Positions 1 to 59,856 of a stretch of DNA of 59,856 nt are shown here, in pieces. The notes under the pieces are model-generated. The model worked only from the letters and a program-made list of their open reading frames with translations. It ran no database searches and was not told the origin of the DNA. The position numbers and the translations under genes are program-made. This DNA comes from Chrysochromulina tobinii (Eukaryota): positions 1 through 59,856 of the forward strand of contig JWZX01003346.1 of NCBI GenBank assembly GCA_001275005.1. The letters are read 5' to 3'. Each line of letters starts with the position of its first letter. Within the stretch, counting starts at the first letter, position 1.

Positions 1-1615
1 GCGCCTCGGCGGGCGCGCCGTCGCGGGCGCCTCGGACGGTCTGCCGAGCGTCGCGAGATTGCGATTCACGGGAGAGAAGCTGCCGTTTCAGCGCCTGATG
101 GACGCGGCGCAGCCCTCACCTGCAACGGCCGCGGCCGCTGCGACCGGGGGCAGCACACCGAGTGGTGCGCCGGGCGCCGTCGCGGGCGACCTCCAGGGGA
201 GTCGTGTCAAGGAGCCGTTGGCGGTGACTGCGGCGCGTCGTTCACAGCCGGTGCTCGATGCCGTCCAGAGCCAGCTGCGCAAGCAACGGGTGTATGTGAC
301 CACCAACAGCGGTACTGTGCTTTCGCTGCGCGCGGGTGCCGACCTGCAGGTCGCCCTCGACGCTCTCAAGCTGCGGGGACTGCCCCATGAGGCAGCTGCC
401 ACGACGGCGCGCGTCAACGGGCGCACGGTACGGCGCGAGTACAAGCTGCCTAGCATGCACGCGCTCACCACGGCGCCCCGCTCTCCCAAATTAGGTACGG
501 CGCGAGTACAAGCTGCGCAACGGAGACGTCCTGATGCCGCTCGCCACGACGGCGCTCAACTCCTACGCCTGGGTAGCGACCGGTAGGACGACGTACGCCT
601 GGGGCGAGGCGGCCGACTGTGAACGTGAATGGGGCGAGGCGGCCGAGGCGCTCGCGGCGGCGCCCACGCCCGTCCCCTATCCATGGAATCTCGTCGGCTC
701 GCGCCGGGCCGAGGACGCCCTCAACTGGCTCCTGGAGGCTGAGAAGAAGCATGGAAGCGTCGCGTCGCTCGCGCTCGCCAACTGGTGCGCGCTCACGACG
801 GCGCGCTCACGACGGCGCGCTCGCTCCTCGGCGAGGGGAACGCCCTGCATACACGTGCTCACCACGGCGCCCGCTCCCCTCTTCCCCACAGGTGCGCACT
901 CTCGCTCCTCGGCGAGGTGAGCCTGGCGGCGGAGCCCCTCTCGAGCCTCTCGCGGCCCCTGCCCTCGATGGCATGGGCACTCCAAGGGGGGGCGGTGGCG
1001 CTTGTCGAGGCTTGGACGTTACACACGGCGACCTCGGCCCTCATCCGCGCCGTGCCGGGCGTCGCTGCGCGGCCGCCCGACGCGACGCCTACCGGCATCG
1101 CCGCGGACGACGCGACGAGTACCGGTACCGGCTCGTCGCCTACGGACGATGCGTGGGCGAGCGTGTCCAGAGATTTTTGGGTGGGCTTCGCTGCGGCCGC
1201 GCCGCCCGTGCCATTGCGCATCGCCGATGCGTGGGAGAAACTTTTGTGCGCTCTCGAGGTCGAGAAGGCGCTCAGCACGGCGCTCGTGGGCTGCTCCTCA
1301 CCGGCCTTTTTAGGTCTCCTTATAGGGCGCGTGGCGATGGTGCTCATCACGGCGCTCGCGCTGCACGCCGATGTGCAGTTCGGCATCCTGCACGACGTCT
1401 TCTCGCGAGGCAACATGCCCCTCACCGCCCGCGAGCGCCGCGCTGAGCGAACCGTCACCCGACCGGGCGCGCTCGCGCCGCCCGCGCCCACGACGGCGCC
1501 GTCGGCGGCGCTCGGCGCCGAGATGGATCTGGAGCGGCTGGCGGCGGAGGAATCCTTTCGTGACTCGCTCGCCTCCGATCTCGTGCTCCAGGACATCCCC
1601 CTCGAGCTCAACTGA
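1..1615 (+). CDS. RelA/SpoT homologue (RSH)-like protein, 3' part with TGS domain; 5' end outside window; exons <1-427, 495-784, 892-1615
   Basis: Removing GT-AG introns 428-494 and 785-891 joins three ORFs in frame. This yields RVYVTTNSGTVLSLRAGA...ARVNGRTVRREYKLRNGDVL, matching the TGS pattern of RelA/SpoT (VYVFTPKG..LP.G...AKVNG..V....L.NGD.V). The catalytic domains are not visible in the window. Confidence 0.7.
428..494 (+). mobile_element. Introner-like intron (core family A), 67 nt, with perfect 23-nt flanking duplication
   Basis: ggtacggcgcgagtacaagctgc occurs at 427-449 and 494-516. The core gcatgcacgcgctcaccacggcgc lies between them. Splicing restores the TGS reading frame. Confidence 0.8.
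785..891 (+). mobile_element. Introner-like intron (core family A), 107 nt
   Basis: The intron 5' part (gtgcgcgctc...ctcgctcctcggcgagg) copies the next exon start (gtgcgcactctcgctcctcggcgagg). It contains the core gcatacacgtgctcaccacggcgc and ends with a pyrimidine tract plus cag. Confidence 0.75.
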
Positions 1616-17028: not shown

Positions 17029-19169
17029 ATGTCGAAGTCGTACTTGATGGCAGCGTCCACTCGCGCAGCCGACGCTGACGCTGCTGGAGGTCACTCTGCG
17101 CCGGCCGCGGTGCGCTTTGAGGGCGACGCGGATGGCGCTCTTGCGCGCGCATATGAGTGTGACGGCCAGTCCAAGGCCATGGAGATGAAGTACCCCATGC
17201 ATTGCATGAAGATGTCTGACTTCTTGCAACTCACTATGCTGGAGGCGCACAACGGCCTGGTCGAGCGCGGGCTCGTGGTGCCGCTCAACTTCGACGGTAA
17301 GCATGCAGGCGTGGAAATCCAGTTTGTGTCTCATCAGTGGTTGGGCTACACAGTCGCCGATCCCAACGGCGATCACCTCACGACGATGCAGGCCGCCTTC
17401 CGGATCGCTATCGACGAAGGCAAAGGGCTCTTCAAGAGTCATGAAGACTGGAAAGCTTATGCCGAGGGTATGACAACTACCAACGCGACATCCACAAGTT
17501 TGGTTCAAACGCGGAGAGTGCGTCTCTCGGCACTGGCTCCTCGGCCTGTGAGGCGGGAGCCAGTCCAGAGATGGACGTGGAGAGGCGCCTTGCCCTCAGA
17601 CACGAGACCTTCAAAGCCAACGTAGCGGACAGTTGGGTTTGGATGGACTTTCTGTCTGTGCCGCAGACTGTGGGCCTCTCGGATGTCGCGGCTGTCCAAG
17701 AGGCCATCAGCAAGCAGGCGGATGCCATTCGCTCCATCCCTTCTTACATCCGCCACGCCACCACCTTCTGGATCTGCACGCCGCAGGGCGCCAAGCACGA
17801 GAGCGGCGAGCTGTGCTCGTATGCCACGTGGAGCGCTCGCGGGTGGTGCCGGCTCGAGGAGACCACTATCGCGCTGCTCAACTTGGCGACGCACGCCCGA
17901 CCTATCATGCTCACCGACCCAGTAGGCGCTCGGCCGTTGGCGGTGACCCCGGACAGCGTCGACCGGATGTCAGTCCACGTGCAGCGGCGCAATTCGGTGC
18001 TCACAGGCGCCTTCTCGTGCTGCCGGTTGAAGCACCAGGTGCAAACGCTCAACGGTAACTTCGCACCGATCCCGTGCGACAAGATCATCCTGCGCAAGGT
18101 GCTTGCGGAGGTCTACGTAGAGGGCTTGAGCATCGCGCGCGACCTATGGCAGCGCGACAAGGAGCACGACACACGCGACATAGAAGGGATGGGCACGTTC
18201 TGGTCGAGCATGATGGCCGGCATCACTGGGCAAGATCCGAGTTTTGCGCTCTGGTACTTCCATAGGAGCCTGCGGCAAGCGTATTTCGCCGAGGGCGTCG
18301 ACGAGCCTGACTTTGTGGCGTTGGGCTGGTCGAAGCCGTTCGAGGAGCTCACGGCGGAGGATTGCGAGCACTACTGTGCGCGCTGGGGGATGAAGTGGCG
18401 GCCTGACCACTCTGTGGAGAAGGCGGCGGGATGCTATTGGCCTGCGCAGGTGATTGCATGCTGATTGCAGGTTGATTGCAGGCTGATTGCAGGCTGATTG
18501 CATGATTATTGCATTCTGATTGCAGTTTGATTGCATACTGAGTGCGTGCTGATTGCATGCTGATCGCAGGTGATTGCATGCTGATTGAAGGTTGATTGCA
18601 TGCTGATTGAATGCTGATTGCATGCTGATTGCATGTGGCAGGAGGGCAACTTGCCCATGCTGCGCTACTTTGTGGAGGTGCTCGGAATGGACCCAATGAT
18701 GGCTAATGTGATCGGTGTCTCGACACTGCACTGCGCGGCGCGCCATGGCTTCAACAAGATCATATGTTACCTCGTGGCGAAGGCGGGTGAGCGTGTGGGT
18801 CATGGCACGCCTGAGCTGCGCGCGTGGCTCAATCAGCGCACGAATAGCCTGAAGCTTTCGCCCATCGACGGAGCTGCTGTGTGCGGCCACCCGAGTACCA
18901 TCAAGTTGCTCGCTTCGCTCGGCGCTGATATCCACGCGCGCCGCTCCAACGGTCGTACGCCGCTGCACTCGGCAGCCGCGTATGGGCACGCGGCCTGTGT
19001 GGGTGAGCTGCTAGCGCTCGGCGCGGATCCCGAAGCGCAGGCAGACGACGGTAGCAAGCCTGCCGACCTCGTGACACACTCGTGCTCTCTCTCTGCATGG
19101 CCGACGACACAACATGACGAGTGTCTCGAGCTCCTCGACGCAGCCGTAAGGGAGAAGAAGAAGGCATGA
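17029..19169 (+). CDS. HET (heterokaryon-incompatibility)-like domain plus C-terminal ankyrin repeats
   Basis: HET-like motifs FVSHQWLG, WVWMDFLSVPQ, IPSYIRHA and WSARGWCRLEE, then ankyrin repeats (STLHCAARHG, TPLHSAAAYGH). Intron 18450-18641 joins the domains in frame. A frame change near 17470-17570 is either a further intron (e.g. 17468-17568) or an indel. Confidence 0.7.
18450..18641 (+). repeat. Intron composed almost entirely of ~11-nt TGATTGCATGC repeats
   Basis: gtgattgcatgctgattgcagg...gcatgtggcag. Phase-0 removal joins PAQ|EGNLPM. Confidence 0.85.
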
Positions 19170-20370: not shown

Positions 20371-23049
20371 ATGGCGGCCGCCGCTCCAAACGAGCCGAAC
20401 CTGATCAGAGTGGACGGAGCACCGCCGGGAGGGCCGTCGGCAGCTCTACCTCGCTCTCCTGATGCCGCAGCCGTCGCGCGAAAGCTCAAGCAGGCGATCG
20501 TGCAGTTCATGCATGGCGATTCCGACGAGCGCCTCGTGGCTGCCAGGGCGCTGTACGACACGGCGGGCGTGAGCATCGTCATGTGCAGGCAGCTGCTACA
20601 GGAAGCGGGCGCGGCGCTCGTCGCGGGGCTCGACGAGCAGCTGACCAACGACAAGGCGTTCGTGCTCGTCGTGCTGCTCACGCTCAAGCGGATCGCCGGC
20701 CACCTGACGATGGAGGTGAACGATCTGAGAGTCGCGCCGCCGCTGGTCGCGCTGTTGCGGTCGTCCACAGCGTCACTCCGGCGCCACGCCGCCGCCTTGA
20801 TCGAGCTGCTCTGCGCCGAGGACGAGGCGGCCAAAAGCTTGCTCAACGCGGGCGTCGCTCCCGTGCTCTTGCGGCTCGCCCTCGGCGAGCGTGGTGATGG
20901 CGACGACGGTGGCGGCGGTGACGACGCCGGTAGCGGCGGGCAGGGCGGAGACGCCGATCGCAGCGGCGGCCACGGCCGCCGCCGCCGTGGCTGCAGCAGC
21001 GACGACGGCGCAGGCATCAGCAGCGGTGCCGCCGTGTTATGCGCATGCACGGTGCTATGCCGCCTAGCTGAAGACCGAGACACGCGCTATCAAGTTTCGA
21101 CTGCCTTTGTCGAGCACACGGGCCTCGTGCTCGCGCTCGTGGCGCCTCTCGAGTACGATGCGCCCGCGGAGGCCAAGCAAGCGCAGCAGCAGGTGCTCCG
21201 CGCCATCGCCGCCCTCGGGGTGATAGGAGAGTTCAAATCGTCCCTCGCGGCAGAGGGCAACTTCATAGGCCTGCTGTTCCAGCTGCGTGACTCGGCGATC
21301 GCGGGCGTGCCGGCGCTCGCGCACGCGATCGCGGCACACTGGGATGACGACTTCCTCGGATGGGCCTGGCAGACGTGCGCCTCGTGCAAGCAGGTGCGCA
21401 GGATGGCCACTCTGAGGGCTGACGAAGCTCTGAGGGCTGACGAAGGGCGCTCTTCTTCTCTTAATAGCCTCTCTCTCCTCTCCCCCGCTCCTCATCCTCC
21501 CTCCACCCTCCTCCCCCACCCCGCGCAGGTGGCCGCCGAGCTGATGCTCGACCCCGAGACGCCCATCGGGCCCGCCGACGCCTCGGGCGGCGTCGAGCGC
21601 TACACCGTACAGCTCTTCACGGCCCATCGGATCCTGAGGGAGTTCCTCAAGCAGGCACGTTGATTGCCACTGATGGCCTGCCGTGCATGCAAGTGCTCAC
21701 CACAGCGCTATCGGCTCCCCGTCTGCCAATTGGAAGGCGATTGCGACTGATGACCTACAGTGCATGCACGCGCTCACCACGACGCTCCTCTCTTCCTCAA
21801 ACAGGCCGATGAGGTGACGCATGGCTTGCTGCGCCTGCAGGCACAGCTCGATGAGGGCGTGGCCCTCACCGAGAGGTACGCCGGCGTGCTTCGTCAGCGC
21901 TTCGTCATCGGCTCCGACCCGTCGGACGCGCCGGCAGACCCCGACGCGCCGCTTTCCGCTCCACGCGCCTTCGAGGTGCACAACCGACAGCTGGCGCGCC
22001 AGCTCGGAGACCCGCGGCCCTCGGCATGCAAGTGCTCACTACGGCGCACCCTCGCGTCTCCCCACAGGTGCACAACCGACAGCTGGCGCGCCAGCTCGAG
22101 GCCTCCGCGCAGCAGGTGCGCACAAGCTACCGGCAGCTTCTGCTGCACTGCAGCCTGCTCCTCGACGGCGAGCGGACCGTGCAGCGGGCCGAGGGACACC
22201 TTCGCGAGCTCGACGAGCTCGTTCGCGCAGGGAAGGCGGTCGAAGTGACGTTCCTGTGGAAGCAGCAAGCACACGTCGCGCTGCGCCGGGCGCTCATCGG
22301 CCTTTCGCTTCGTCTTGAGCTCCATGTGCGTGCCCTTCTCGCCCAACGCGAGGGCTCCGGCTCGATGCTCGGGCTCGCGGAGCAGGTGCGTCTCGTCAAT
22401 TTCCTCTGATTGCCTCTGATGGCCTCTGATTGCCTCTGATTGCCACTCTCGATCGTATGGTGGAGCAGGTGCGTCTCGTTCATGGCCTCTTGATTGCCTC
22501 TGCTGATGGCCTCTGCTGATGGCCTCTTCTTGCACGCGATCTTGACCCTCCGGGTCGCGGAGCAGGTGCTCGAGGGGCTTCCGCTGCTTCGGAAGGAGGC
22601 GACGGCACTCGAGGGGATCGCCGACGCCGCCGACCGTCTCAAGAGGCGAGGCCTGGGCGAGGGCGGGGCGGGCATGGAGGGGGAAGCGGCCATCCCTGCC
22701 CCCTCCCCCTCCCCCTCCGCCTCCGCCTCCGCCGCCTCCCTTTCGTTTGCGTCCCGCTCCCGACCGGCGCGTACGCTCACCGGCGTGGCGCACGCAGCCA
22801 GCGCCTCCTCGTTCACAGTCTCGAAGCGCCCCCCGCGCCGTGCCGCCTCCGCATCGCGCCTACTCCACCCAGGCCGCCTCGGTGGTAGCCTCAGTGGTAG
22901 CCTCGGCGGCTGCAGTGGCGGCTGCAGTGGCGGCGTGGCCAAATCGCCGAGCGGCGCGACCGCGAGCGCCGACGCAGCCGCGGCGGGAGCAGCGGCGGCA
23001 GGAGTAGATGCGGCGGCAGGAGCGGCGGCAGCAAGCGCGAAAGGCAGCA

Positions 23050-23086
<37 letters not shown>

Positions 23087-25738
23087 GAGCGGCGGCGGCG
23101 GCGGCGGCGGCGGGAGCTGGCCATCCAGTGGGGGCTACCTGAATCCGATCTCGGGCTCCGAGATCATGCCCAAGACGACGCCGATCTCGGGCTCCGAGAT
23201 CATGCCCAAGACGACGCCGATCTCGGGCTCCGAGATCATGCCCAAGACGACGTCCCCCCGCCATGCCCCCGCGTGGCTCAGCTTGAGTCTGAGCCACCCA
23301 AGCCTCGGTCGTCCACTCACACCCTCGGTGCTCACCTACCGGTCGTTGCCGGCGCGTGAGCAAGCGGAGGTCGCGAGCGAGACGCGACTCGCCCTCGCCA
23401 TGGCAGCGCGGCGCCACGGCTCTGCCAACGTCCTACTCACGGCGCGGTCGGCTGCGGCCGACCGACCGAGCGCCGTACCGAGCGAGGCGGCGCTGCTCCC
23501 CGAGCGCCGTACCGAGCGCACCGACGGCGGCGCGAGTGGCGGCGAGGGCGAGGAGGCCGAGGGCGGTGGCGCTCGGTACGGCGCTGACGGCGAGCTTGGC
23601 GACGACGAGGGCGGTGGCGCTCGGCACGGCGCTCACGTGCGCTTCGAGTCCGACGAGACGAAACCATCGATGACGAAACCATCGATGACGAACCCATCGA
23701 TGACGAAACCATCGATGACGAACCCATCGATGACGAAACCATCGATGACGAAACCATCGATGGCACCACGGCCGTCCCAGGCACCAGCACCGCCGACGAC
23801 GCCCGGTCGACCCTACTCCGCGGGCCTGCTGCGAGCGCCCAACACGGCGCTGTCGAGCGGCCGCCCCACCTCGGCCGCGAGCACGCCCAACACGACGCTC
23901 GGTCGACCCGGCTCGGCCACGTCCACGCGCGCGAGCCTCGCGGGCGTCGTGCTGGGCGCGGGCACGGAGCCGCCGAGCTTCGCGAGCAAGCAGAGGCTCG
24001 CCACGCCCTTCCTCGCGTCCGACCCGCATGAGCGCCGTCGACGACGCCAGATGAGCGCCCCTGGCGAGACTGAGCTGCGTGAGCTCGTGACGAACCCTTC
24101 CAAGCTCGGAGGTCGCGCGAGATTTCTTCGGCTGCAGCAGATCTTCGAGGGCATCGACGAGGACTCGTCGGGCGCGATCTCGCAGCGCGAGCTGCGCACC
24201 TTTCTCGACCGCGCGGGCCTCGAGGTCACCGATCGAGAGCTCACCTCTGATTGCCTCTTGATTACCTCTGATTGCCTCTGATGACCGATGATTGCCTCCC
24301 TCATCAGGTCTCCGATCGGGAGCTCACCTCATGGATCGACAACTCGGCATTCGACAATAACGGCGAGGTCGAGTTTGTCGAGTTCATCGAGGTCATCAAC
24401 ATGCTCAGCCGGCGCGCGCGTGCGTACGAGCGCGAGAAGGCGGTGCGCGAGTACGGCGGCGGCGGTGCGAGCCCGAATGGTGCCGAGCAGTCTCGACAGC
24501 AGGCGGCGGGGGCTGCAGGGCGTGAAGACGCCGACGCCGACGCTGACACCGACGGGGAGGGGGGGGCCGACGACGCCCCCTCCCCGCCTCCCGCCGCCGC
24601 CGCTCGGGCTGGCGATCTCGAGGAGCTCGAGATCGAGACGGTCCTCAATGAGTCCCGCCGCAGCGCCGCGCCGCCGCCGCGCTGTGCCGCGATGGAGAGC
24701 ACGCGCCGCAAGGCGGCTCTCTTGTCTTATTACCTGCCCACGACGCCCTTCCAGCCTATGGGCATCGTCCGCAGCGCCGCGCCGCCGCCTTTGCTCACGG
24801 CGGACGCGCGGGCGGACTCGGCGCACTTCCAGCCTGCCGATGCGGATGACCGGCCAGCGATTCAGATGCACCGGTCGGAGCTCGCTGATCTGTTCCCACA
24901 GGCGGCGCACTACGCCACCGCCCTCGTCATTCACAGCTTCGTCGAGCCCACGGCAGCTGGGGCGACCGGCGGCAAGGCGGGCGGAAAGGGCGGCGACGAC
25001 AGCACGTCCGACGGCGTCCCTCTCATCACCCTATTGCAGCTACAGGCTTGGTCTCGCCTGACCGGCTTCCCCGACCTCTCGCCCCTCTCGGGGCCCCAAT
25101 GGCTGACCGTCCTCCTGCGCCGGATGAGCGTGGTCCCGGGCACCGCCCTCGTACTTGGCCCTGACGGCGCACCCATGCTCACGGGCGTGCGCTGCGCGGC
25201 GCCCGCGGCACGTCTGCCCCCCCTCGCTGGCTGGGATGCGCTACAGCTATTAGCGTGGTTTCGGTGTGCCCGGCTGCTCGATCTGCCCGAGGCATCGCCG
25301 CGCACGCTCGCCCGACTTCCCCTCGATCAGCTGTGGCCGACGCTTGGCAACTGCGTCAGCCAGACGCGCTCGCTCATCGTCGCCAACGGCGGCCGGCTCC
25401 AGCCGCCACCCGCGCCATCAGCGGCGGCCGCGGCCGTGGCGCTCAAGGCGGCGCTCGCTGGGGGAGATCTCGCTGGGGGAGATGGCGAGGCCGGCGTGCC
25501 GTCCGTGGCGCGTGCCGCTGCGCCCGCGACGGCGCCCGGCGCTCGCGCAGCCTCGCGCTACGACCAGGGCGCCCGCGTCGAAGGCTCGGTGCTCCTCGAG
25601 CCTCCGCCGCCGCCACCGCCTTCGCATTTGGTCGCTGCCAAGCTCGCAGGCGCGCGCCACCGGGCGGTCATCAACGCCGCGCCTACGTCTCGCTTGCGGG
25701 CGCGCAACAGCCACATGCTGCGGCGCATCGACTCGTGA
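20371..25738 (+). CDS. Large ARM-repeat/low-complexity/EF-hand protein; exons 20371-21393, 21529-21654, 21805-21975, 22068-22385, 22566-24224, 24308-25738
   Basis: Five phase-0 introns (one GC-AG) chain five ORFs. ARM-like helices lie at the N-terminus. The EF-hand pair DEDSSGAISQRE and DNNGEVEFVEF is joined across the last intron. Confidence 0.7.
21655..21804 (+). mobile_element. GC-AG intron made of two tandem family-A units
   Basis: Units 21655-21736 and 21737-21804 each carry gattgc.actgatg.cct...tgcatgca.g.gctcaccac. The intron end ttcctcaaacag|gc copies the upstream exon end ttcctcaagcag|gc. Confidence 0.75.
21976..22067 (+). mobile_element. Introner-like intron (family A), 92 nt, with perfect 33-nt duplication
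   Basis: aggtgcacaaccgacagctggcgcgccagctcg occurs at 21974-22006 and 22066-22098. Core gcatgcaagtgctcactacggcgc. Confidence 0.85.
22386..22565 (+). mobile_element. Intron made of two tandem TGATTGCCTC-filler units (family B)
   Basis: An internal ggagcag|gtgcgtctcgt at 22462-22479 repeats the donor context. The intron end gggtcgcggagcag|gtgc copies the upstream exon gggctcgcggagcag|gtgc. Confidence 0.75.
23145..23252 (+). repeat. Coding tandem repeat, 36 nt x3 (PISGSEIMPKTT), each unit with an 8-bp hairpin
   Basis: ccgatctcgggctccgagatcatgcccaagacgacg; gatctcgg pairs with ccgagatc. Confidence 0.9.
23657..23761 (+). repeat. Coding tandem repeat, 15 nt x7 (TKPSM)
   Basis: gacgaa(a/c)ccatcgat units. 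Confidence 0.9.
24225..24307 (+). mobile_element. Introner-like intron (family B), 83 nt, with 25-nt duplication (2 mismatches)
   Basis: aggtcaccgatcgagagctcacctc versus aggtctccgatcgggagctcacctc flank a tgattgcctc filler. The intron splits an EF-hand pair. Confidence 0.8.
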
Positions 25739-35721: not shown

Positions 35722-36912
35722 ATGGCGTGCTGCCCCTTATACGCCGTTCAAACGAGCAGTGTGAAAATCATTGAGACTTGTGGTGCATTCAAAACAATCG
35801 CACGCCCCGGCTTGAACTGCTTGATCCCGTTCGTCGACAACATCGCGACCACCGTTTCGATGCGCCTCCAGCAGATGGAAATCGCCTGCGAAACGAAGTC
35901 CAGGGATAACGTACGCGTCGCAGAAAAGGAGATGGCGTGTGAATGCGCTGCCGCCGATGCGGACGCTGACCGCCGCCGCCGCTTCGCCGCCGCAACTCTG
36001 CCCCCGCAGGTGTTCTTGACCATCCGCGTCGCCATCCAGTACCAGGTCATCGCCAACGACGATGCGATCAAAGCCTCGTACTACCGTCTGACCAACCCGA
36101 AGCAGCAGGTCGAGTCGTACGTGTACGACGTCATCCGGTCGACGGTGCCCAAAATCAACTTGGACGACGGTGCGGCGACTTACCATAGATGGAACCGACC
36201 CCACCCGCTCACTCACGCTTGCCCCGCCGCCTTCGAACCACGCCACCGCGTGGGTGGAACGCTCCGACCCTCCCCCGCCTCTCAATACCCCCCGTCGTGC
36301 TTAGCGAGTCGTGCCTCGTGCTCGCCGCCGCGCCGCAGTGTTCACAACCAAGGAAGAGGTGGCGGCCGACATCCTCGAGAACCTCAGGGAGGCGATGAAG
36401 GACTTCGGCTACGAGATCCTCAGCACGCCCATCACGGACATCGACCCCAACCGAGAGGTCAAGAACGCGATGAATGAGATCAACAAACAGAAGCGGTTGC
36501 GCGTCGCGGCAGAGGACGAGGGCGAAGCCGTCAAGATTCGCTCGATTAAGGAGGCCGAGGCCGAGGCCCAACGCACGGAGATCACAGCTCATGCGGAGGC
36601 CCGAAGCCCAAGTACCTTCACGGCCAGGGCATCAGCCGCCAGCGCCAGGCTGTCATGGAGGGTCTGCGCGAGTCGTGCGCCGCGTTCCATGATGAGATCA
36701 AGAGCATTGATCCGAAGACGGTGCTCGACCTGATGGTTGTCACGTCGTACTTCGACATGATGAAGGATCTGGGCGCCCACGATAAGACGAGCGCCGTCTT
36801 CATGAACCACTCGCCCGGCGCACTGGAGGACCTCGCGGGAGCGGTCTCAAAAGGTTTCATGACGGGCCTGCCGGCCGCGCCGGGATTTGCGCAGCCGATG
36901 GGCCGACGCTGA
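35722..36912 (+). CDS. SPFH/band-7 hypersensitive-induced-response (HIR)-like protein, copy 1 (two apparent 1-nt insertions)
   Basis: CETKSRDNVF, YVYDVIRSTVPKINLDD, ITDIDP, RQRQAV and YFDMMKDLG. Introns 35911-36009 and 36170-36338. Extra C in runs at 36600-36602 and 36607-36609 breaks AEAKYL. Confidence 0.85.
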
Positions 36913-37515
36913 GTTCGCCGCCGCCCCGAGGAATCGTGACGCCCATCTGCGAATCGTGGCTGCTCCGCGAACCGAATCGTGAACATCAGAATGTACCCAT
37001 GAATGTACTGCTCTGGGTCGGGACCGCACTGGGTGGCGCCGCGCGGGACACGGGGCGCGCGCGCGCGGCGCGCCGGCCCGGCCCTTATAGCTACGAGTTG
37101 GGGGCGCGCGGCGGACCGTGCGTGGTTTTGTGATCCATGATGAATCTTGTACTAGGTCTTTCCATCCTCTTCTGCCCCACTTGAAGTCTTCTTACTACAT
37201 GGAACATGCTATGTATGGAACATGCTTATAGTCTTCCTTGAACATAAATTATCGGGGTCGTAGCTACTACGCTGAGAGGTTTCCGCCGCCGGCTTGCGTG
37301 TTCGGCGCCGGCGTCCGGTCGCGTAGGTCCCGCGCCACCGGCCCCTCAGGCTCAGCGACAGCCGACACGACGCCACACCAAAATGGCCCTTGGTCCGTTG
37401 GTCGCCACGGGTACACGCACCAACTGCCGACATCAAAATTTGGAGTTGCGGGACCTGCTTCGTCTCGCCACTCGCGCGTCTGAGAGCGTCGCTGCGCCGC
37501 GCGAGTCGCGGCTGA

Positions 37516-38714
37516 TCATCGCGACATGAAGCCGCGGCTGACGGACTGAGTCAGATCCGCAAGCGACGAGGGCGAATGGTTGAGGAAGAGGGCGTTCGAC
37601 CTGGATTCCTTGCCAATCGACTGCATCATGTCGAAGTACTGCGTGACAATCATCAGGTCGAGCACTTGCTTTGGGTCAATCCCCTCGATCTCGCGCCCAA
37701 ACGCATTGACGGACTCGCGCAGGCCGCTCATGATGGCCTGACGCTGGCGTGCAAGGCCCACGCCAGCCAGGTACAGGGCCTCGGCGTCCGCCTTGGCGTG
37801 GATCTCGATCGACCTCGCACTCGCTTCGGCATCCTTAATGGCGCGCGTCTTCTTGGCCTCCCCTTCATCGCCCGCGGCCTCTTTGACGCGCCTGGCCTTA
37901 TTGATCTGGTTCATCGCGTTCTTGACCTCGACCGCGGGCTCGATGGCGGTGATGGGTGTGGCAAGGATCTCGTACCCAAACGAGCCGAAGTTCTCCTTGA
38001 GGTTTTCGGCCACCTGCTTCGCAGTCTCATCCTTCTCGAGGAAGACGTTGTCCAGGTCGAGTTTGGGCACGGTTGAGCGCACGACGTCATACACGTACGC
38101 CTGGATCTGGCGGTGGGGATCGGAGAGGCGGTAGTAGGCACTGTGCATCGCCGCCTCCTCCTTTTTGATCTGGTACTGGATGGACACCTGCAAGGCGAGT
38201 GACGATCGGTGGCAGCGCGAGGTAAAGAAGACCTCGGGAAGAGTAGAAGGAGACGCCCGCTTGCGTGCGTGGGGCGCGCGCTTGCGACTGGCTCGCGTGG
38301 CGCCTCTGCCCACTGCCACCTCGTGAGGATCGATAGGGCGCACATGACCGCCGTGCACCGATCACCAAGCGCACCTCGATGTTTGTGAAGACGTTGTCCT
38401 TCGTCTTTGTTTCGCACGTGACTTTGATCTGCTGCAGACGCATCGATACGTGATTGGAGGCCTCGTCGACGCAGCAAATCACAAAACTCAGCCCAGGCTG
38501 CATGATGTATGTAAATGCGCCGCATCGCTCCACCATGCGCACATTGCCCGTCTCAGTGCAAACCGGGTAGCACACCTGGGAAGCAAGTGGTGAGGGGTGG
38601 CGAGGGTGAGCGGCGCGCGGAATGTTGCACCTGAGTGCGCTTCCATGTTGGCTGCATCGCCAGGCACGAGCACAGCGGCCTGCAAGACTGCACGGGGGCA
38701 GCGCTCCTCACCAT
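37516..38714 (-). CDS. SPFH/band-7 HIR-like protein, copy 2; exons 38714-38712 (ATG only, tentative), 38575-38375, 38187-37516
   Basis: CETKTKDNVF, YVYDVVRSTVPKLDLD, GVGLARQRQAI and TQYFDMM. Phase-0 GT-AG introns. Confidence 0.85.
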
Positions 38715-48595: not shown

Positions 48596-50812
48596 TCAAG
48601 TGCGCAGCAATGAGCCCCCATCTGGCTCCATGCCGGCCCGAATCTCCTCCAGACGGCGGCGCTGTCGCCCCTCGCTGTCGAAGTTGGCCGGCGAGAGCCA
48701 CGCCGAGAGCGCCGCGCCCACTCGAGGCCACTCGGCGTCAAGGATCGAGAACCACGCCGTGTCACGGTTGCGCTGTCGGACGACTGTGGCTTGGCGCGTC
48801 ACGCCTTCGAAGACGAAGCCAAGGCGCAGGGCGGCTGCGCGTGAGCGCACGTGGCGCGCGTTGCACTTCCACTCAACGCGCCGGTAGCCGTTGCTAAAGC
48901 TCCACTGGAGCATGAGGAAGAGCGCCTCGGTCGCGGGCGGCGTGCGAGCCAGTTGCGGCCCGAAGCTCAGATGGCCTATCTCAAGACATCCATGCGCGGC
49001 GGCGATGCGGAGGAAGGCGGCGAGGCCGAGGGCGACGCCGTTCACTTCGAGCGCGAAGAAGAGCGGGTCGGCGCTCGTCGTCTGTGGACCGAGCCATGCG
49101 CCGAGCGCCGCCGGCGAGTCGAACGGACCGTACGAGAGGAATGTCCAGTGCACGTCGCCCGCGCCGGCATAGGCGGCGTGGAGTGCGCTCGCGTGCTCCA
49201 AAGCAAGCGGCACGCATGCCACACAGGCGCCGCGTAGCGTCAGTCGGACCGGCGACGGCGGCGGCTTCCAGTCGGAAGCCAGTTGAGGCCCGATGGGTAT
49301 GCTGACGGCAGGCAGGCCGATGGGCATGCTAACGGCAGCAGAGTCGTGCACTTGCCACACGGGGGCCTGCCAGTTGGTACGCGGAGGCGTCGCGCTCAGC
49401 AGCGGAGCCGTCATGCCGCTCAGGCTGGTCTTCTGTCTGTTGAAGAGTGTGGCGGCCTCGGCAGGCGCCGTTACGGGCGCGCTCGATAATCCCACGCCTT
49501 CACCCACGCCTTTACCAAAGCTTTCACCGATGCCTCCGGCCACGATGCCAAAGTTGCTCGGATCGAGCCATGCACAATAGCAGCGCTCGATGGCGGGCCA
49601 CTCCGGGCGCGTGATGGAGAACACTGCCTGATCGCTCGTGCGACCCTTTAGGACGAACCGTTGGCGGAAGGTGACTTCATACGTAAAGCCGAGTCGCTGC
49701 GCAGCCCGCATGGCGGGCTCATTGTGAGGATCGCACGACCATTCGACACGACGGTAGCCGCACGCGAATGCCTCGCGGATCTGGAGGATCATCGCCTCGG
49801 TGCCCGCGGCGGCGCCTGCAATCCTCGGCGAGATCATGATCTCCGCAATCTCCGCGGTGCCTCCCTCTGGAGCGACGCTTATCAGCGCGCCAAGACCCGC
49901 CGCGGTGCCACTCGCAAGGTCGACGTACCTGATGACGGGGGCACTCAGATAGCATGAGGTGCAATCAGAGGCGATCAATGGCCCGTCGCTCGCAAGGTCG
50001 ACTTACACGCCGAAGTAGGCGCCCGTGCCGGCCTCGAGGCTCGCGAGGTACGCCCACAGCGCCTCGCGACTTGAGAAGCCGCTCTGGAAACTGTACGCCC
50101 AACGGCTGTGGCTTGGATCGTCTTGGAAGGCTGCAAAGAGCTCATCGCAATGCCTGTCTGCCTCGAGAGGCTCGACGCGCACGAATCGGCCGACGTGTGT
50201 CGCGCGGTGCAGCCGCTTTGGTGGCGCCCACAGCGCGTCCGACGCTGCGGTGCACAGGGTGGGCAGGTATTCATCGAGCACCTGGTGGCCGCCATGAGGC
50301 ACGGCGTGCAGGACCACATCCGCCATGCCGTCCACGTACAGCTGCGAGAGCCCGAAGCTCCTGACAGGGTCGTCGCGCGCCCAAAAGAGCACTGCCGGCA
50401 GCCGCGCGATCCTGGCGATCAAAGAAGTGTCCGTGAGCGACGGCGCAACCAGCACCAGCATGCGCACCATCATCGGGTGAGCGGCAGCAAATGCCACGGC
50501 CTCACCGCCGCCCCATGACTTGCCCATGATGACTGCGCTTGTGGCACCCGCATGCTTGTAGATGCCCAGGAGTAGCTTCTCCGTGTCCACGCTTGCCATG
50601 AAGCCGGGCTTCGTGGCGGCATTCGAGTGCAGGTTAGGCAGCAGCACGCGCAGACCCACTGTGGCCAACTCACGGGCAGCTGGCTCCCACTCTGTGATGA
50701 CGTCTAGGTTGGCGCTCTTGCCCTGTATGCACAGGACGAGAGGCGCCCCGGCGCAGCCAAAGTCTAGCGCGTCCACGGGACCGAGGTGCGTCGCGAGCTG
50801 CACGGCCGCCAT
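48596..50812 (-). CDS. Alpha/beta-hydrolase fused to two RimJ/RimL-type GNAT acetyltransferase domains; exons 50812-50007, 49928-48596
   Basis: Triad GKSWGG, DD and GGH. Two GNAT repeats (GYRRVEWSCDPHNEPA and GYRRVEWKCNARH...RNRDTAWFSILDAEW). Phase-2 intron 50006-49929 joins the ORFs within the first GNAT. Confidence 0.8.
49929..50006 (-). mobile_element. Introner-like intron (family B), 78 nt, with 18-nt duplication (1 mismatch)
   Basis: Intron start gtaagtcgaccttgcgag versus exon start gtacgtcgaccttgcgag. Filler tgatcgcctctgattgcacctc, ending catcag. Confidence 0.8.
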
Positions 50813-54471: not shown

Positions 54472-55104
54472 AACGATGACTTCTGGCAGGAAATGGCAGC
54501 TCGCGTCTCTGACGCCTCCGAGCTACTCTTAGCGCGCCAAGAGCCAGTGCAGCCACTTGCCAAAAAAAGCCGTGCGCTGCCGCCGCTTCAGCCGTCCTCA
54601 TCGCCGCCGGCACGCGCCTCGGCAGGCACCTCGGCCCCGCCACTGGCTCACTACCGCGCGTCGCAGCCGCCGACCCTCGGCTCTCAGCCCATCGGAGCGC
54701 TGACGCTGCGAGCGGCGCCGCCGGCACGCGCCTCGGCAGGCACCTCGGCCCCGCCACTGGCTCACTACCGCGCGTCGCAGCCGCCGACCCTCGGCTCTCA
54801 GCCCATCGGAGCGCTGACGCTGCGAGCGGCGCCCGCGTCCGAGGAGGACTGGCAGCTGTCGGACGAGGCGCTGGCAAGCTTGCCAGACGTGGTGCCAATA
54901 ACCTCTCAGCCCATCGGAGCGCTGACGCTGCGAGCGGCGCCCGCGTCCGAGGAGGACTGGCAGCTGTCGGACGAGGCGCTGGCAAGCTTGCCAGACGTGG
55001 TGCCAATAACCGCCGCGCCACCTCCGCTCGGTACGGCGCCCAACAACGAAGATGATTGGCTTTTCTGGCATCTGCCTGTCGAGGCGCTGGCAAGCTCGCC
55101 ATGA
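53368..55104 (+). CDS. DEDDh 3'-5' exonuclease-like protein with Cys-rich N-terminus and repetitive acidic tail; probable intron 53835-53903
   Basis: ExoI-like STDVET, ExoII-like IVHHGGTE and ExoIII-like HTAAGDA. In-frame gtgcgt...ggcag intron. ED repeat and internal duplications. Confidence 0.6.
54602..55011 (+). repeat. Two overlapping coding tandem duplications (114 nt x2 and 108 nt x2)
   Basis: Near-perfect copies starting at 54602/54716 and at 54795/54903. Confidence 0.95.
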
Positions 55105-55367
55105 TGCGAGAGGCGCGCCGATCGGACGGCCAGAGAAAGCTCGAGGAAGACGAGGCAGAGAGCGGAGCGGAGCAAAGCGGGTAGGGACTCGCTCGCCATG
55201 ATGCGAGAGGCGCGCCGATCGGACGGCCAGAGAAAGCTCGAGGAAGACGAGGCAGAGAGCGGAGCGGAGCAAAGCGGGTAGGGACTCGGGAGGCGGGCCG
55301 GATCAGATCTGTCCTCTGTCCTCTGTCCTATGTCCTCTGTCCTCTGTCCTCTGTCCTCTGTCCTCTG
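55094..55367 (+). repeat. 97-nt tandem duplication spanning the stop codon, followed by (TCTGTCC)n
   Basis: Copies at 55094 and 55191. About 8 heptamers at 55308-55367. Confidence 0.95.
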
Positions 55368-58411: not shown

Positions 58412-59856
58412 TCAGCCGCACTCGTCAAGGAAGACGAGCTGGTCGACGAGAGGCCAGAGGCGCAGCTTCGACTCGCCCAGGATGCTGAGCAGCTCGGAGC
58501 GCATGCGCTCGTCACAGCGCTCGTCGTCGTCCTCGCCCTCGGCCTCCACGCCCTCTTCGTCGCGCCGTCGCAGGTACGCATACACACGCTCAAACGTGGC
58601 GACGCCCAACTCCCGCCGGCAAGCTTCACGCAGAGCGGCGGCCCTCTCGGCTCCGGCAAGGCCGTGAGGCTCAGCGACGTCGTGGGCGTCGGCGTGGGCG
58701 TCGGGGCCGTCGCCGCCCTCGCCGTTGTAGTAGTCATAGTCGGGGCCTTCGTACGCATCGTCGCCCTCGTACTCCTCGTACTCATCGTACCCTGCCGCCG
58801 CCTCACCGTACCCTTTGACGTCCCCTACGATAGCGAGCTGCGGCGCGGCCGGCAGCCACGCGGCATCGTCGGTCAGGGCACGAAGGGTGCCACCTGGTAC
58901 TACGCGCTGCGCCGCGAGTGCCACTCCGAGCGCCGTGTCGAGCGCGGAGAGCTGCGCGTCGTCGAGGGTACCCGAATGGTACTCGTACAGCGCCGTGTCG
59001 AGCGCGCTCTCGAGCAGCGCGTCGGCGTCGGCGGCGGCGGCGGCGTCAGCGTGGTCCCCGATGCTGCCGCTGCCGCTGCCGCCGCTGCCGGCCGAGCTCA
59101 TGTACCTTGACGGAGGGAGAGTCAAGCGCGCCATGGTGAGCACTTGCATGCAAGGCAGGTCATCAGTGTGGCAATCAACGTACCTTGACGGAGGGAGAGT
59201 CTCGCGCGCCATGGTGAGCACTTGCATGCAAGGCAGGTCATCAGTGTGGCAATCAACGTACCTTGACGGAGGGAGAGTCTCGCGCAGCGTGCTCAGCACG
59301 ACGCTCGACACGACAGGCTCGCAAGCAATGAAGCCCTCCACCGCCGCAGCGGCTTTGCCAGCAGTGCCGGCGGAGGCGGCGGGCGGGGGGCGTCGCTTCG
59401 AGTGGCTCGTAGCGACCAGGGTGGCGCGGAGGAGCTGAATGTTGAGCTCACACGCCCCAAGCGTCTCCTCGCACTCCTCGAGCTGCCGCTCAACCTCGGC
59501 ATCTAAAGAAGGCCGCGGAAGGAGCGCTGTGCTGAGCGCTGTGCTGAGCGCTGTGCTGGAGGCATGTTGCACGGCGGCGAGCTCGCGCGCGAATTCGTCA
59601 ATCCCCATCGGCGGCGGCGGCGGCAGCACGTCGGCGCCGTCGAGGCCCTCGGTACCGTCGGCGGTGGCGGCGAGAGGTTCCGCTGACTTGTCGCGGGCGG
59701 GCGTGATGGGCGGAGATTCGTCACGGAGGGCAGCGAGGGTATGGCTGAGGAGCTCGTCCGCGCTCTTCGACTTGAGGCGCTCCTCGAGCGACTCCTCGGA
59801 CGAGAGGGACGCATGCAGCGCGACGGCGTCGTAGTATGCAGCCTCCTCCGCCAGCA
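58412..59856 (-). CDS. 3' part of a protein with a NEK1/NEK11-like C-terminal helical domain (5' end outside window)
   Basis: LREACRRELGVATFERVYAYLR...LLSILGESKLRLWPLVDQLVFLD resembles the C-terminus of NIMA-related kinases. The kinase domain is not seen. Confidence 0.55.
   Translation of the reverse strand, partial: LAEEAAYYDAVALHASLSSEESLEERLKSKSADELLSHTLAALRDESPPITPARDKSAEPLAATADGTEGLDGADVLPPPPPMGIDEFARELAAVQHASSTALSTALSTALLPRPSLDAEVERQLEECEETLGACELNIQLLRATLVATSHSKRRPPPAASAGTAGKAAAAVEGFIACEPVVSSVVLSTLRETLPPSRYVDCHTDDLPCMQVLTMARETLPPSRYVDCHTDDLPCMQVLTMARLTLPPSRYMSSAGSGGSGSGSIGDHADAAAAADADALLESALDTALYEYHSGTLDDAQLSALDTALGVALAAQRVVPGGTLRALTDDAAWLPAAPQLAIVGDVKGYGEAAAGYDEYEEYEGDDAYEGPDYDYYNGEGGDGPDAHADAHDVAEPHGLAGAERAAALREACRRELGVATFERVYAYLRRRDEEGVEAEGEDDDERCDERMRSELLSILGESKLRLWPLVDQLVFLDECG
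59106..59261 (-). mobile_element. Tandem dimer of a 78-nt family-A intron unit
   Basis: Minus strand: 2 x gtacgttgattgccacactgatgacctgccttgcatgcaagtgctcaccatggcgc plus a copy of the upstream exon end gactctccctccgtcaag. Confidence 0.8.

What the first reader, a model, noticed from the sequence alone, without database searches (positions are those of the whole stretch)
21974..22098. Youngest-looking insertion: perfect 33-nt AG|GT-containing duplication around the core
aggtgcacaaccgacagctggcgcgccagctcg is duplicated with no mismatch around a ~59-nt insert that holds the core and a pyrimidine tract. One copy is intronic and free to drift, so identity implies a very recent event (inference).
Basis: partly seen in the sequence, partly recalled or inferred. 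Interest (0 to 1): 0.75.

Follow-up and report, generated by a model that had tools for sequence, protein, structure and literature searches.

The report
Intron copied from another intron's half
This 92-letter spliced intron in an alga's gene is built from a copy of the gene's own next 31 letters plus the back part of another intron found elsewhere in the genome; many introns of this alga share that build, which likely arises from a copying slip during DNA repair and gives a traceable case of how new introns are born.

Summary
The 33-nt perfect repeat is real, stands in DNA contigs at single-copy depth and brackets a GT..AG intron, 21976-22067, removed exactly in one RNA contig. The host is a haptophyte. 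The 59-nt insert is a copy, with one difference, of the 3' part of another intron outside the window; its first letters come from that donor's own exon, and both joins show microhomology, 4 and 6 nt. This is a class, not a one-off: 103 of 131 comparable introns start with a copy of the next exon (null 5 of 1298); a mirror form exists (17 of 27); donors are often in the same gene; two other sites have empty alleles. 'Youngest' is not supported: 36 of 101 duplications are mismatch-free, and no empty allele of this site was found. Most likely mechanism: template switching during DNA repair; an RNA template is not excluded. I found no description of this architecture in nine literature searches.

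The parts
21976..22067 (+). 92-nt spliceosomal intron, GT..AG, phase 0
   Evidence: RNA contig X11 record 3 skips 92 nt; only GT/GC..AG placement among the 33 possible shifts; spliced frame open for 1099 codons, retention stops it at codon 530
21974..22006 (+). first copy of the 33-nt repeat: AG ends exon 1, the other 31 nt are the intron's 5' part and give the donor site
22066..22098 (+). second copy: AG of the acceptor plus the first 31 nt of the next exon; its first 6 nt are also shared with the donor intron's own splice junction
22003..22006 (+). 4-nt microhomology between the end of the duplication and the donor intron
   Evidence: record 3 and tables 5c and 7
22007..22023 (+). filler copied from the donor intron; 22007-22016 matches the donor's own next exon, which fixes the direction donor to this site
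   Evidence: loose end behind 22071; 22003-22047 at depth 358, about three copies; no second copy in the window
22024..22047 (+). conserved 24-nt core with a branch-point-like CTCAC, A at 22038, 30 nt from the 3' end (branch point inferred, not mapped)
   Evidence: very high summed depth on core words in DNA runs
22048..22067 (+). pyrimidine tract and CAG acceptor carried in with the insert
20371..24224 (+). host gene, part examined (continues downstream); four RNA-bridged introns 21394-21528, 21655-21804, 21976-22067, 22386-22565; no Pfam family in four of its frames scanned
428..494 (+). second intron candidate of the same build, mismatch-free 23-nt duplication (splicing not tested)
785..891 (+). 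same build, diverged duplication (splicing not tested)
   Evidence: read
24225..24307 (+). same build with the other motif family (TGATTGCCTC repeats), 23-nt duplication, 2 mismatches (splicing not tested)
49929..50006 (-). same build, TGATTG family, 18-nt duplication, 1 mismatch (splicing not tested)
59106..59261 (-). mirror form in two tandem 78-nt units: 5' half and core carried in, end of exon 1 copied behind it (splicing not tested)

Best explanation
This spliced intron consists of a copy of the next exon's first 31 letters joined to the 3' part of another intron, and it likely arose when DNA synthesis at a break or stalled fork switched template twice at microhomologies. Shown: the duplication, the splicing, the donor copy and its direction, the microhomologies, the class, the excess of same-gene donors, and empty alleles at two other sites. 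Inferred: the nascent strand ran 31 nt past a GT, re-primed at 4 shared letters inside a donor intron, copied its branch region, pyrimidine tract and AG, then re-primed at the shared AG|GTGC back at the start of the duplicated stretch (repair of the theta-mediated or synthesis-dependent microhomology kind). The GT of the first copy serves as donor site and the copied AG as acceptor, so splicing removes exactly duplication plus insert and the protein is unchanged; selection would keep mainly such events in coding exons. Each new intron can serve as donor for the next, and the long repeats would allow later tandem expansion or exact loss.
For: Donor: one search shows two further copies of the insert (1 and 2 differences over 22022-22071) whose own next exon contains this intron's filler. 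Class: 103 of 131 isolated, non-redundant CACAG-ending core introns carry a copy of the next exon, null 5 of 1298; it starts at exon position 1 in 88 of 103; length 12-48 nt, median 26. Independent of motif family: 160 junction-anchored duplications in 730 kb, 83 core, 32 TGATTG type, 45 other (these include antisense double counts), 0 in a 300-kb Markov null. Mirror form 17 of 27 units (tandem units counted singly), null 18 of 1905. Local donors: best match in the same locus for 17 of 119 recipients against 1.3% expected; after dropping tandem units and the other records, 8 of 105 same-strand pairs within 4 kb against 28 of 7007 between-locus pairs differ by 3 edits or fewer, 0 of 5000 permutations. 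Direction readable from donor-exon fillers also in L042 and L058. Core-side microhomology mean 3.75 nt in 8 hand-picked pairs against 0.37 by composition. Empty sites: L067 has an 81-nt intron, matching its neighbour 524 nt downstream, that L010 lacks; L043 has an array that L061 lacks.
Against: Exon-side microhomology is not above the null in 9 pairs (2.9 against 2.4, p=0.13), so a DNA donor is not distinguished from an intron RNA. All 10 local whole-insert donors are on the same strand, as an RNA route predicts, though only 6-17 opposite-strand pairs were there to test. The close local pairs come from only 4 loci, and the 8 microhomology pairs were picked by eye and are not all independent. 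This site's donor is not local. No empty allele of this site; at the other two sites gain and exact loss are not separated by an outgroup. No repair gene was examined; no genome was available. The sample was fetched with the core motif, so it says nothing on the share of all introns.
Confidence: 0.6

Rival explanations
1. Same product, RNA template: a reverse transcriptase or RNA-templated repair polymerase copies an excised intron or pre-mRNA, primed at a staggered break (20-50-nt target duplication, variable 5' truncation) or by template switching on pre-mRNA followed by gene conversion.
For: Inserts of the main form end at the intron's AG and vary at the other end; local donors are all same-strand and in both directions; exon-side microhomology not above null.
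Against: The mirror form keeps the 5' half and copies the upstream exon, which one priming chemistry does not give simply; some cores sit between duplications with no splice site at the join (list of unclassified cases); fixed ends at AG and GT are also what selection for clean splicing leaves; no poly(A) tail.
Confidence: 0.27
2. A conventional introner: a non-autonomous transposon with an unusually long, variable target-site duplication, moved by an enzyme encoded elsewhere.
For: Highly conserved core in hundreds of sampled copies; the 5' part of the mirror form is nearly constant between loci; haptophyte introner families of 70-110 nt are on record.
Against: No constant 5' end in the main form; fillers derive from the donor's host exon; at least two unrelated motif families share the build; neighbours share private variants; no unusual fold (z 0.10).
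Confidence: 0.07
3. An older intron made by plain tandem duplication of an AGGT stretch, whose 3' part was later replaced by gene conversion from another intron and whose repeat is kept identical by homogenisation.
For: This site does have AG|GT in both copies; signs of homogenisation and of unit-number change between strains.
Against: Exon 1 ends in AG in only 44 of 107 cases; the L067/L010 pair differs by the whole unit, insert included.
Confidence: 0.05
4. Assembly artefact.
For: The DNA runs may be those the window was assembled from.
Against: Contigs across both joins at single-copy depth, exact removal in RNA, same build in many unrelated records.
Confidence: 0.01

Closest known systems
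Introners (Gozashti et al. 2022, 10.1101/2022.06.06.494994 / PMC9860276; 2025, PMC12130899)
   Same: Many similar short introns in unrelated genes; one splice site carried, the other taken from the duplicated target; both 'carry 3', co-opt 5'' and the reverse are described, also in haptophytes.
   Different: Their examples have 2-8-nt duplications (one Emiliania family is noted with 10-bp terminal repeats) and similarity from edge to edge, which their screen requires. Here the duplication is 12-48 nt, half of the intron is locus-specific, and inserts carry scraps of the donor's host exon.
Intron gain by tandem genomic duplication of an AGGT stretch (reviewed in PMC3443670)
   Same: Duplicated exon stretch gives a splice site and exact removal.
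   Different: Foreign intron sequence supplies branch region and acceptor; an AG before the GT is not needed (44 of 107).
[quoted passage not shown]
   Same: [quoted passage not shown]
   Different: Repeats there are 4-12 bp (33 cases among 90 new introns) and the passages read name no donor intron; here repeats are longer and donors are traceable.
Templated insertions of synthesis-dependent or theta-mediated end joining (reviewed in PMC7407515)
   Same: Duplication plus insertion copied from a nearby or ectopic donor, with microhomology.
   Different: Not described in the passages read as a source of spliced introns; enzyme untested here.
Same-gene and low-copy intron duplications in fungi; reverse-transcription template switching model of Roy and Irimia (as cited in PMC3609843 and PMC3443670; original not read)
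   Same: Introns copied from other introns, at times within one gene.
   Different: Rare there (82 same-gene cases in 24 species) and whole introns; here half introns with a long target duplication, common in the sample.

Membership tests
Spliceosomal (U2-type) intron | GT..AG ends and exact removal from RNA | tested here: met
   one RNA contig in 1 of 5 RNA runs laid
Spliceosomal (U2-type) intron | branch point used | not testable with these tools
   CTCAC with A 30 nt from the 3' end is only a resemblance to a recalled consensus
Introner (transposon-derived intron) | similar copies in unrelated genes | tested here: met
   3' part only
Introner (transposon-derived intron) | similarity reaching both intron edges | tested here: not met
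   5' part is a copy of the local exon in 103 of 131; criterion from PMC12130899
Introner, TIR/MITE kind | short fixed-length target duplication | tested here: not met
   12-48 nt, median 26
Introner, TIR/MITE kind | terminal inverted repeats or stable fold | tested here: not met
   fold no better than shuffles, z 0.10; no dedicated TIR search across copies
Introner (transposon-derived intron) | autonomous partner enzyme | not tested
   no genome; no transposase or RT family among 34 window frames scanned
Tandem genomic duplication of AGGT | both splice sites from the duplicated AGGT and no foreign sequence | tested here: not met
   59 nt copied from another intron; AG before the donor in 44 of 107
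Non-LTR retro-insertion (target-primed) | variable target duplication, fixed 3' end, variable 5' truncation | tested here: inconclusive
   fits the main form, not the mirror form
Non-LTR retro-insertion (target-primed) | poly(A) or repeat tail at the 3' end | tested here: not met
   inserts end in CAG; 77 of 107 in CCCACAG
Templated insertion by microhomology-mediated repair | insert copied from an identifiable donor with microhomology at the joins | tested here: met
   for this site; core side 3.75 against 0.37 nt in 8 pairs; exon side not above null
Templated insertion by microhomology-mediated repair | dependence on polymerase theta or another alternative end-joining factor | not testable with these tools
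   needs genetics
Known structured RNA family | Rfam match | tested here: not met
   0 matches at E up to 1 in 21300-22700

The most novel reading that the evidence does not exclude
This lineage gains introns in bulk with no transposon at all: existing introns are copied half at a time into exons, near or far, the other half being a duplicate of the target, and each new intron seeds further ones, leaving readable donor-to-recipient pedigrees and presence/absence differences between strains. It would be an ongoing, genome-wide route of intron gain that introner screens are built to miss.
Probability: 0.55. Interest if true: 0.9.

Novelty: new variant of a known kind. Interest (0 to 1): 0.78.

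Why it matters
How new spliceosomal introns arise is a long-standing open question, and recent surveys credit transposons with most ongoing gain (PMC12130899). Here new introns come with their source attached: donor, direction, both joins and, at some sites, the empty allele can be read from sequence. That makes repair-driven or RNA-templated intron gain testable in large numbers in one genome. The screen in PMC12130899 needs similarity up to both intron edges and lists no family for the one Chrysochromulina assembly in its species table (whether that is this organism was not established), so this class could be overlooked in other eukaryotes too. The single intron is one of many and matters as a clear example.

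Tried and rejected
Own genome: not held, so no genome-wide count. Local donor for this intron: none in the window or in the 131 loci; found only through contigs. My first reading of the 17-nt filler as a decayed continuation of the duplication was dropped. Further RNA support: X12, X13, X14 do not bridge the site and X15 has no cover; no evidence either way. Whether L117 and L016, an exact donor pair in different records, are neighbours could not be checked. The first ungapped 'type B' class (24 cases) was mostly misassigned and was replaced. The negative link between duplication and insert length (rho -0.56) is partly mechanical and is not used. Viral and prokaryote collections gave 1 and 3 core matches, left out of the counts. 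Fold and Rfam: nothing. Earlier findings of this scan: none returned. Redundant loci dropped before counts: 12; 5 plus 48 other-record loci; cores with a neighbour within 130 nt.

Full report
Observation. The repeat is as described: 33 nt, exact and maximal, at 21974-22006 and 22066-22098, 92 nt apart. The 59 nt between hold a 17-nt filler, the 24-nt core and a pyrimidine tract ending in CAG. The core occurs 7 times in the window against 0.01 by chance. In DNA run X1, contigs cross both joins with no other letters at depth 122 and 135, flanks 94 and 115; X5 and X6 agree for the second join. So it is not an artefact, and there is no sign of half depth in these three runs, which may be the assembly's own source.

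It is an intron. RNA run X11 has one contig that passes from 21973 to 22066, skipping 92 nt and leaving one copy; the other 4 RNA runs laid do not bridge the site. Of the 33 possible placements only 21976-22067 has GT/GC..AG; the spliced frame is open for 1099 codons and retention stops it at codon 530. The nearest named relatives of a window protein are haptophytes: Prymnesium, Calcidiscus, Diacronema. The genus was not established.

The insert has a donor. In X1 the stretch 22003-22047 has depth 358, about three copies. Two other contigs match 22022-22071 with 1 and 2 differences, and one runs on into an exon whose start contains this intron's letters 22003-22016. The donor is thus a two-unit intron of the same build, and this intron's filler is a scrap of the donor's own exon duplicate, which sets the direction donor to here. 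Four letters are shared at the core-side join and six (AG|GTGC) at the splice join. The donor is not in the window, hence at least 22 kb away or on another contig.

The build is a class. Of 193 isolated, non-redundant cores, 131 end in CACAG and 103 of these begin with a copy of the next exon, against 5 of 1298 with swapped flanks; the copy starts at exon position 1 in 88 of 103 and at GT in 81, GC in 6. Duplications are 12-48 nt, median 26; introns have median 77 nt; exon 1 ends in AG in only 44 of 107, so the acceptor comes with the insert. A scan blind to motif found 160 such structures in 730 kb, including a second family of TGATTG repeats, and none in a 300-kb null. A mirror form carries a constant 5' half plus core and copies the end of exon 1 behind it: 17 of 27 units, null 18 of 1905. 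The sample was fetched by the core, so it does not give the share of all introns; summed depth on core words is over a thousand times single-copy depth, a rough hint only.

Donors are often near. The best donor lies in the same locus for 17 of 119 recipients against 1.3% expected; 20 recipients have a whole-insert match, 10 of them local and all 10 on the same strand; 2 of the other 10 are one orthologous pair. With tandem units and the other records removed, 8 of 105 same-strand pairs within 4 kb differ by at most 3 edits against 28 of 7007 between loci, 0 of 5000 permutations, though the 8 come from 4 loci. In L042 and L058 the recipient's filler is a piece of the donor's exon, 2.5 and 1.7 kb upstream. 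Core-side microhomology averages 3.75 nt in 8 pairs picked by eye against 0.37; exon-side microhomology is not above its null (p=0.13).

Empty alleles exist for the class. Among 8 overlapping pairs aligned, L067 has an 81-nt intron with a mismatch-free 34-nt duplication that L010 lacks, flanks 1.7% apart; its insert matches the next intron 524 nt downstream. L043 has an array of units that L061 lacks. Two further pairs differ in unit number. No outgroup separates gain from exact loss, and no empty allele of this site was found.

Age. The event is young, but the perfect repeat alone shows little: 0 of 33 bounds divergence below 8.7%, and 1 of 92 with the donor gives 0.03-5.9%. 36 of 101 duplications are mismatch-free and 4 of those are longer than this one. 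One substitution stands in both copies of a duplication in L043, a sign that copies may be homogenised.

Mechanism. Most likely (0.6) two template switches during repair synthesis: past a GT, over to a donor intron at a few shared letters, through its branch region and AG, and back to the start of the duplicated stretch. Steps shown: product, donor, direction, microhomology, local bias. Steps inferred: the break, the enzyme, a DNA template, and selection as the cause of the GT and AG anchoring. An RNA template is the main rival (0.27); a conventional transposon is unlikely (0.07).

Literature. Seen: Gozashti 2022 preprint, passages and part 2 of 5, and rows of the journal version's supplement, stored cut, 30 of 155 haptophyte places; Gozashti 2025, parts 1-2 of 7, passages, rows of supplement files 3, 7, 8, files 13-14 not searched; PMC3443670, parts 1-2 of 6; passages of PMC4202315, PMC11282704, PMC3609843, PMC8469720, PMC7407515. 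Haptophyte introners are known, with short duplications where scored. Nine searches listed no paper whose title or abstract start describes introns made of a long exon copy plus half of another intron; the library lacks most subscription papers, and the introner sequences behind those surveys were not seen and may include these families.

Verdict. Real, spliced, young, not unique; a clear example of a build that joins tandem duplication with intron-to-intron copying. New variant of a known kind; interest 0.78.

Noticed in passing
window 22386-22565: One RNA-bridged 180-nt intron made of two units that each start like the intron and end with a copy of the end of exon 1; TGATTGCCTC repeats inside.
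   Followed up: partly
window 21655-21804: GC-donor intron with the constant 5' half and two cores, no clear exon copy.
   Followed up: partly
L034 9377-9597, L043, L011, L021/L045, L073/L035: Whole intron units amplified in tandem; unit number differs between records.
   Followed up: partly
L043 against L061: Several differences near the duplications are adjacent two-letter changes, in the intronic copy and in the exon; could point to error-prone synthesis or conversion.
   Followed up: no
all loci: Core introns cluster on one strand: 323 same-strand against 17 opposite-strand pairs within loci.
   Followed up: partly
window 36404-37980: Long degenerate inverted repeat explained by two Band 7/SPFH frames on opposite strands.
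   Followed up: partly
window 54602-55287: Exact tandem duplications of 114, 108 and 97 nt in a row; may be real or assembly-related.
   Followed up: no
window 18423-18645: 11-nt TGATTGCA-type tandem array starting after CAG|GT, probably intronic.
   Followed up: no
L001 (viral contigs record): A core intron end at the edge of a record filed as viral; may be host DNA.
   Followed up: no
L017/L101, L006, L009, L013: Cores without a normal splice-site context, some between duplications; candidates for non-spliceable inserts that would test the role of selection.
   Followed up: no
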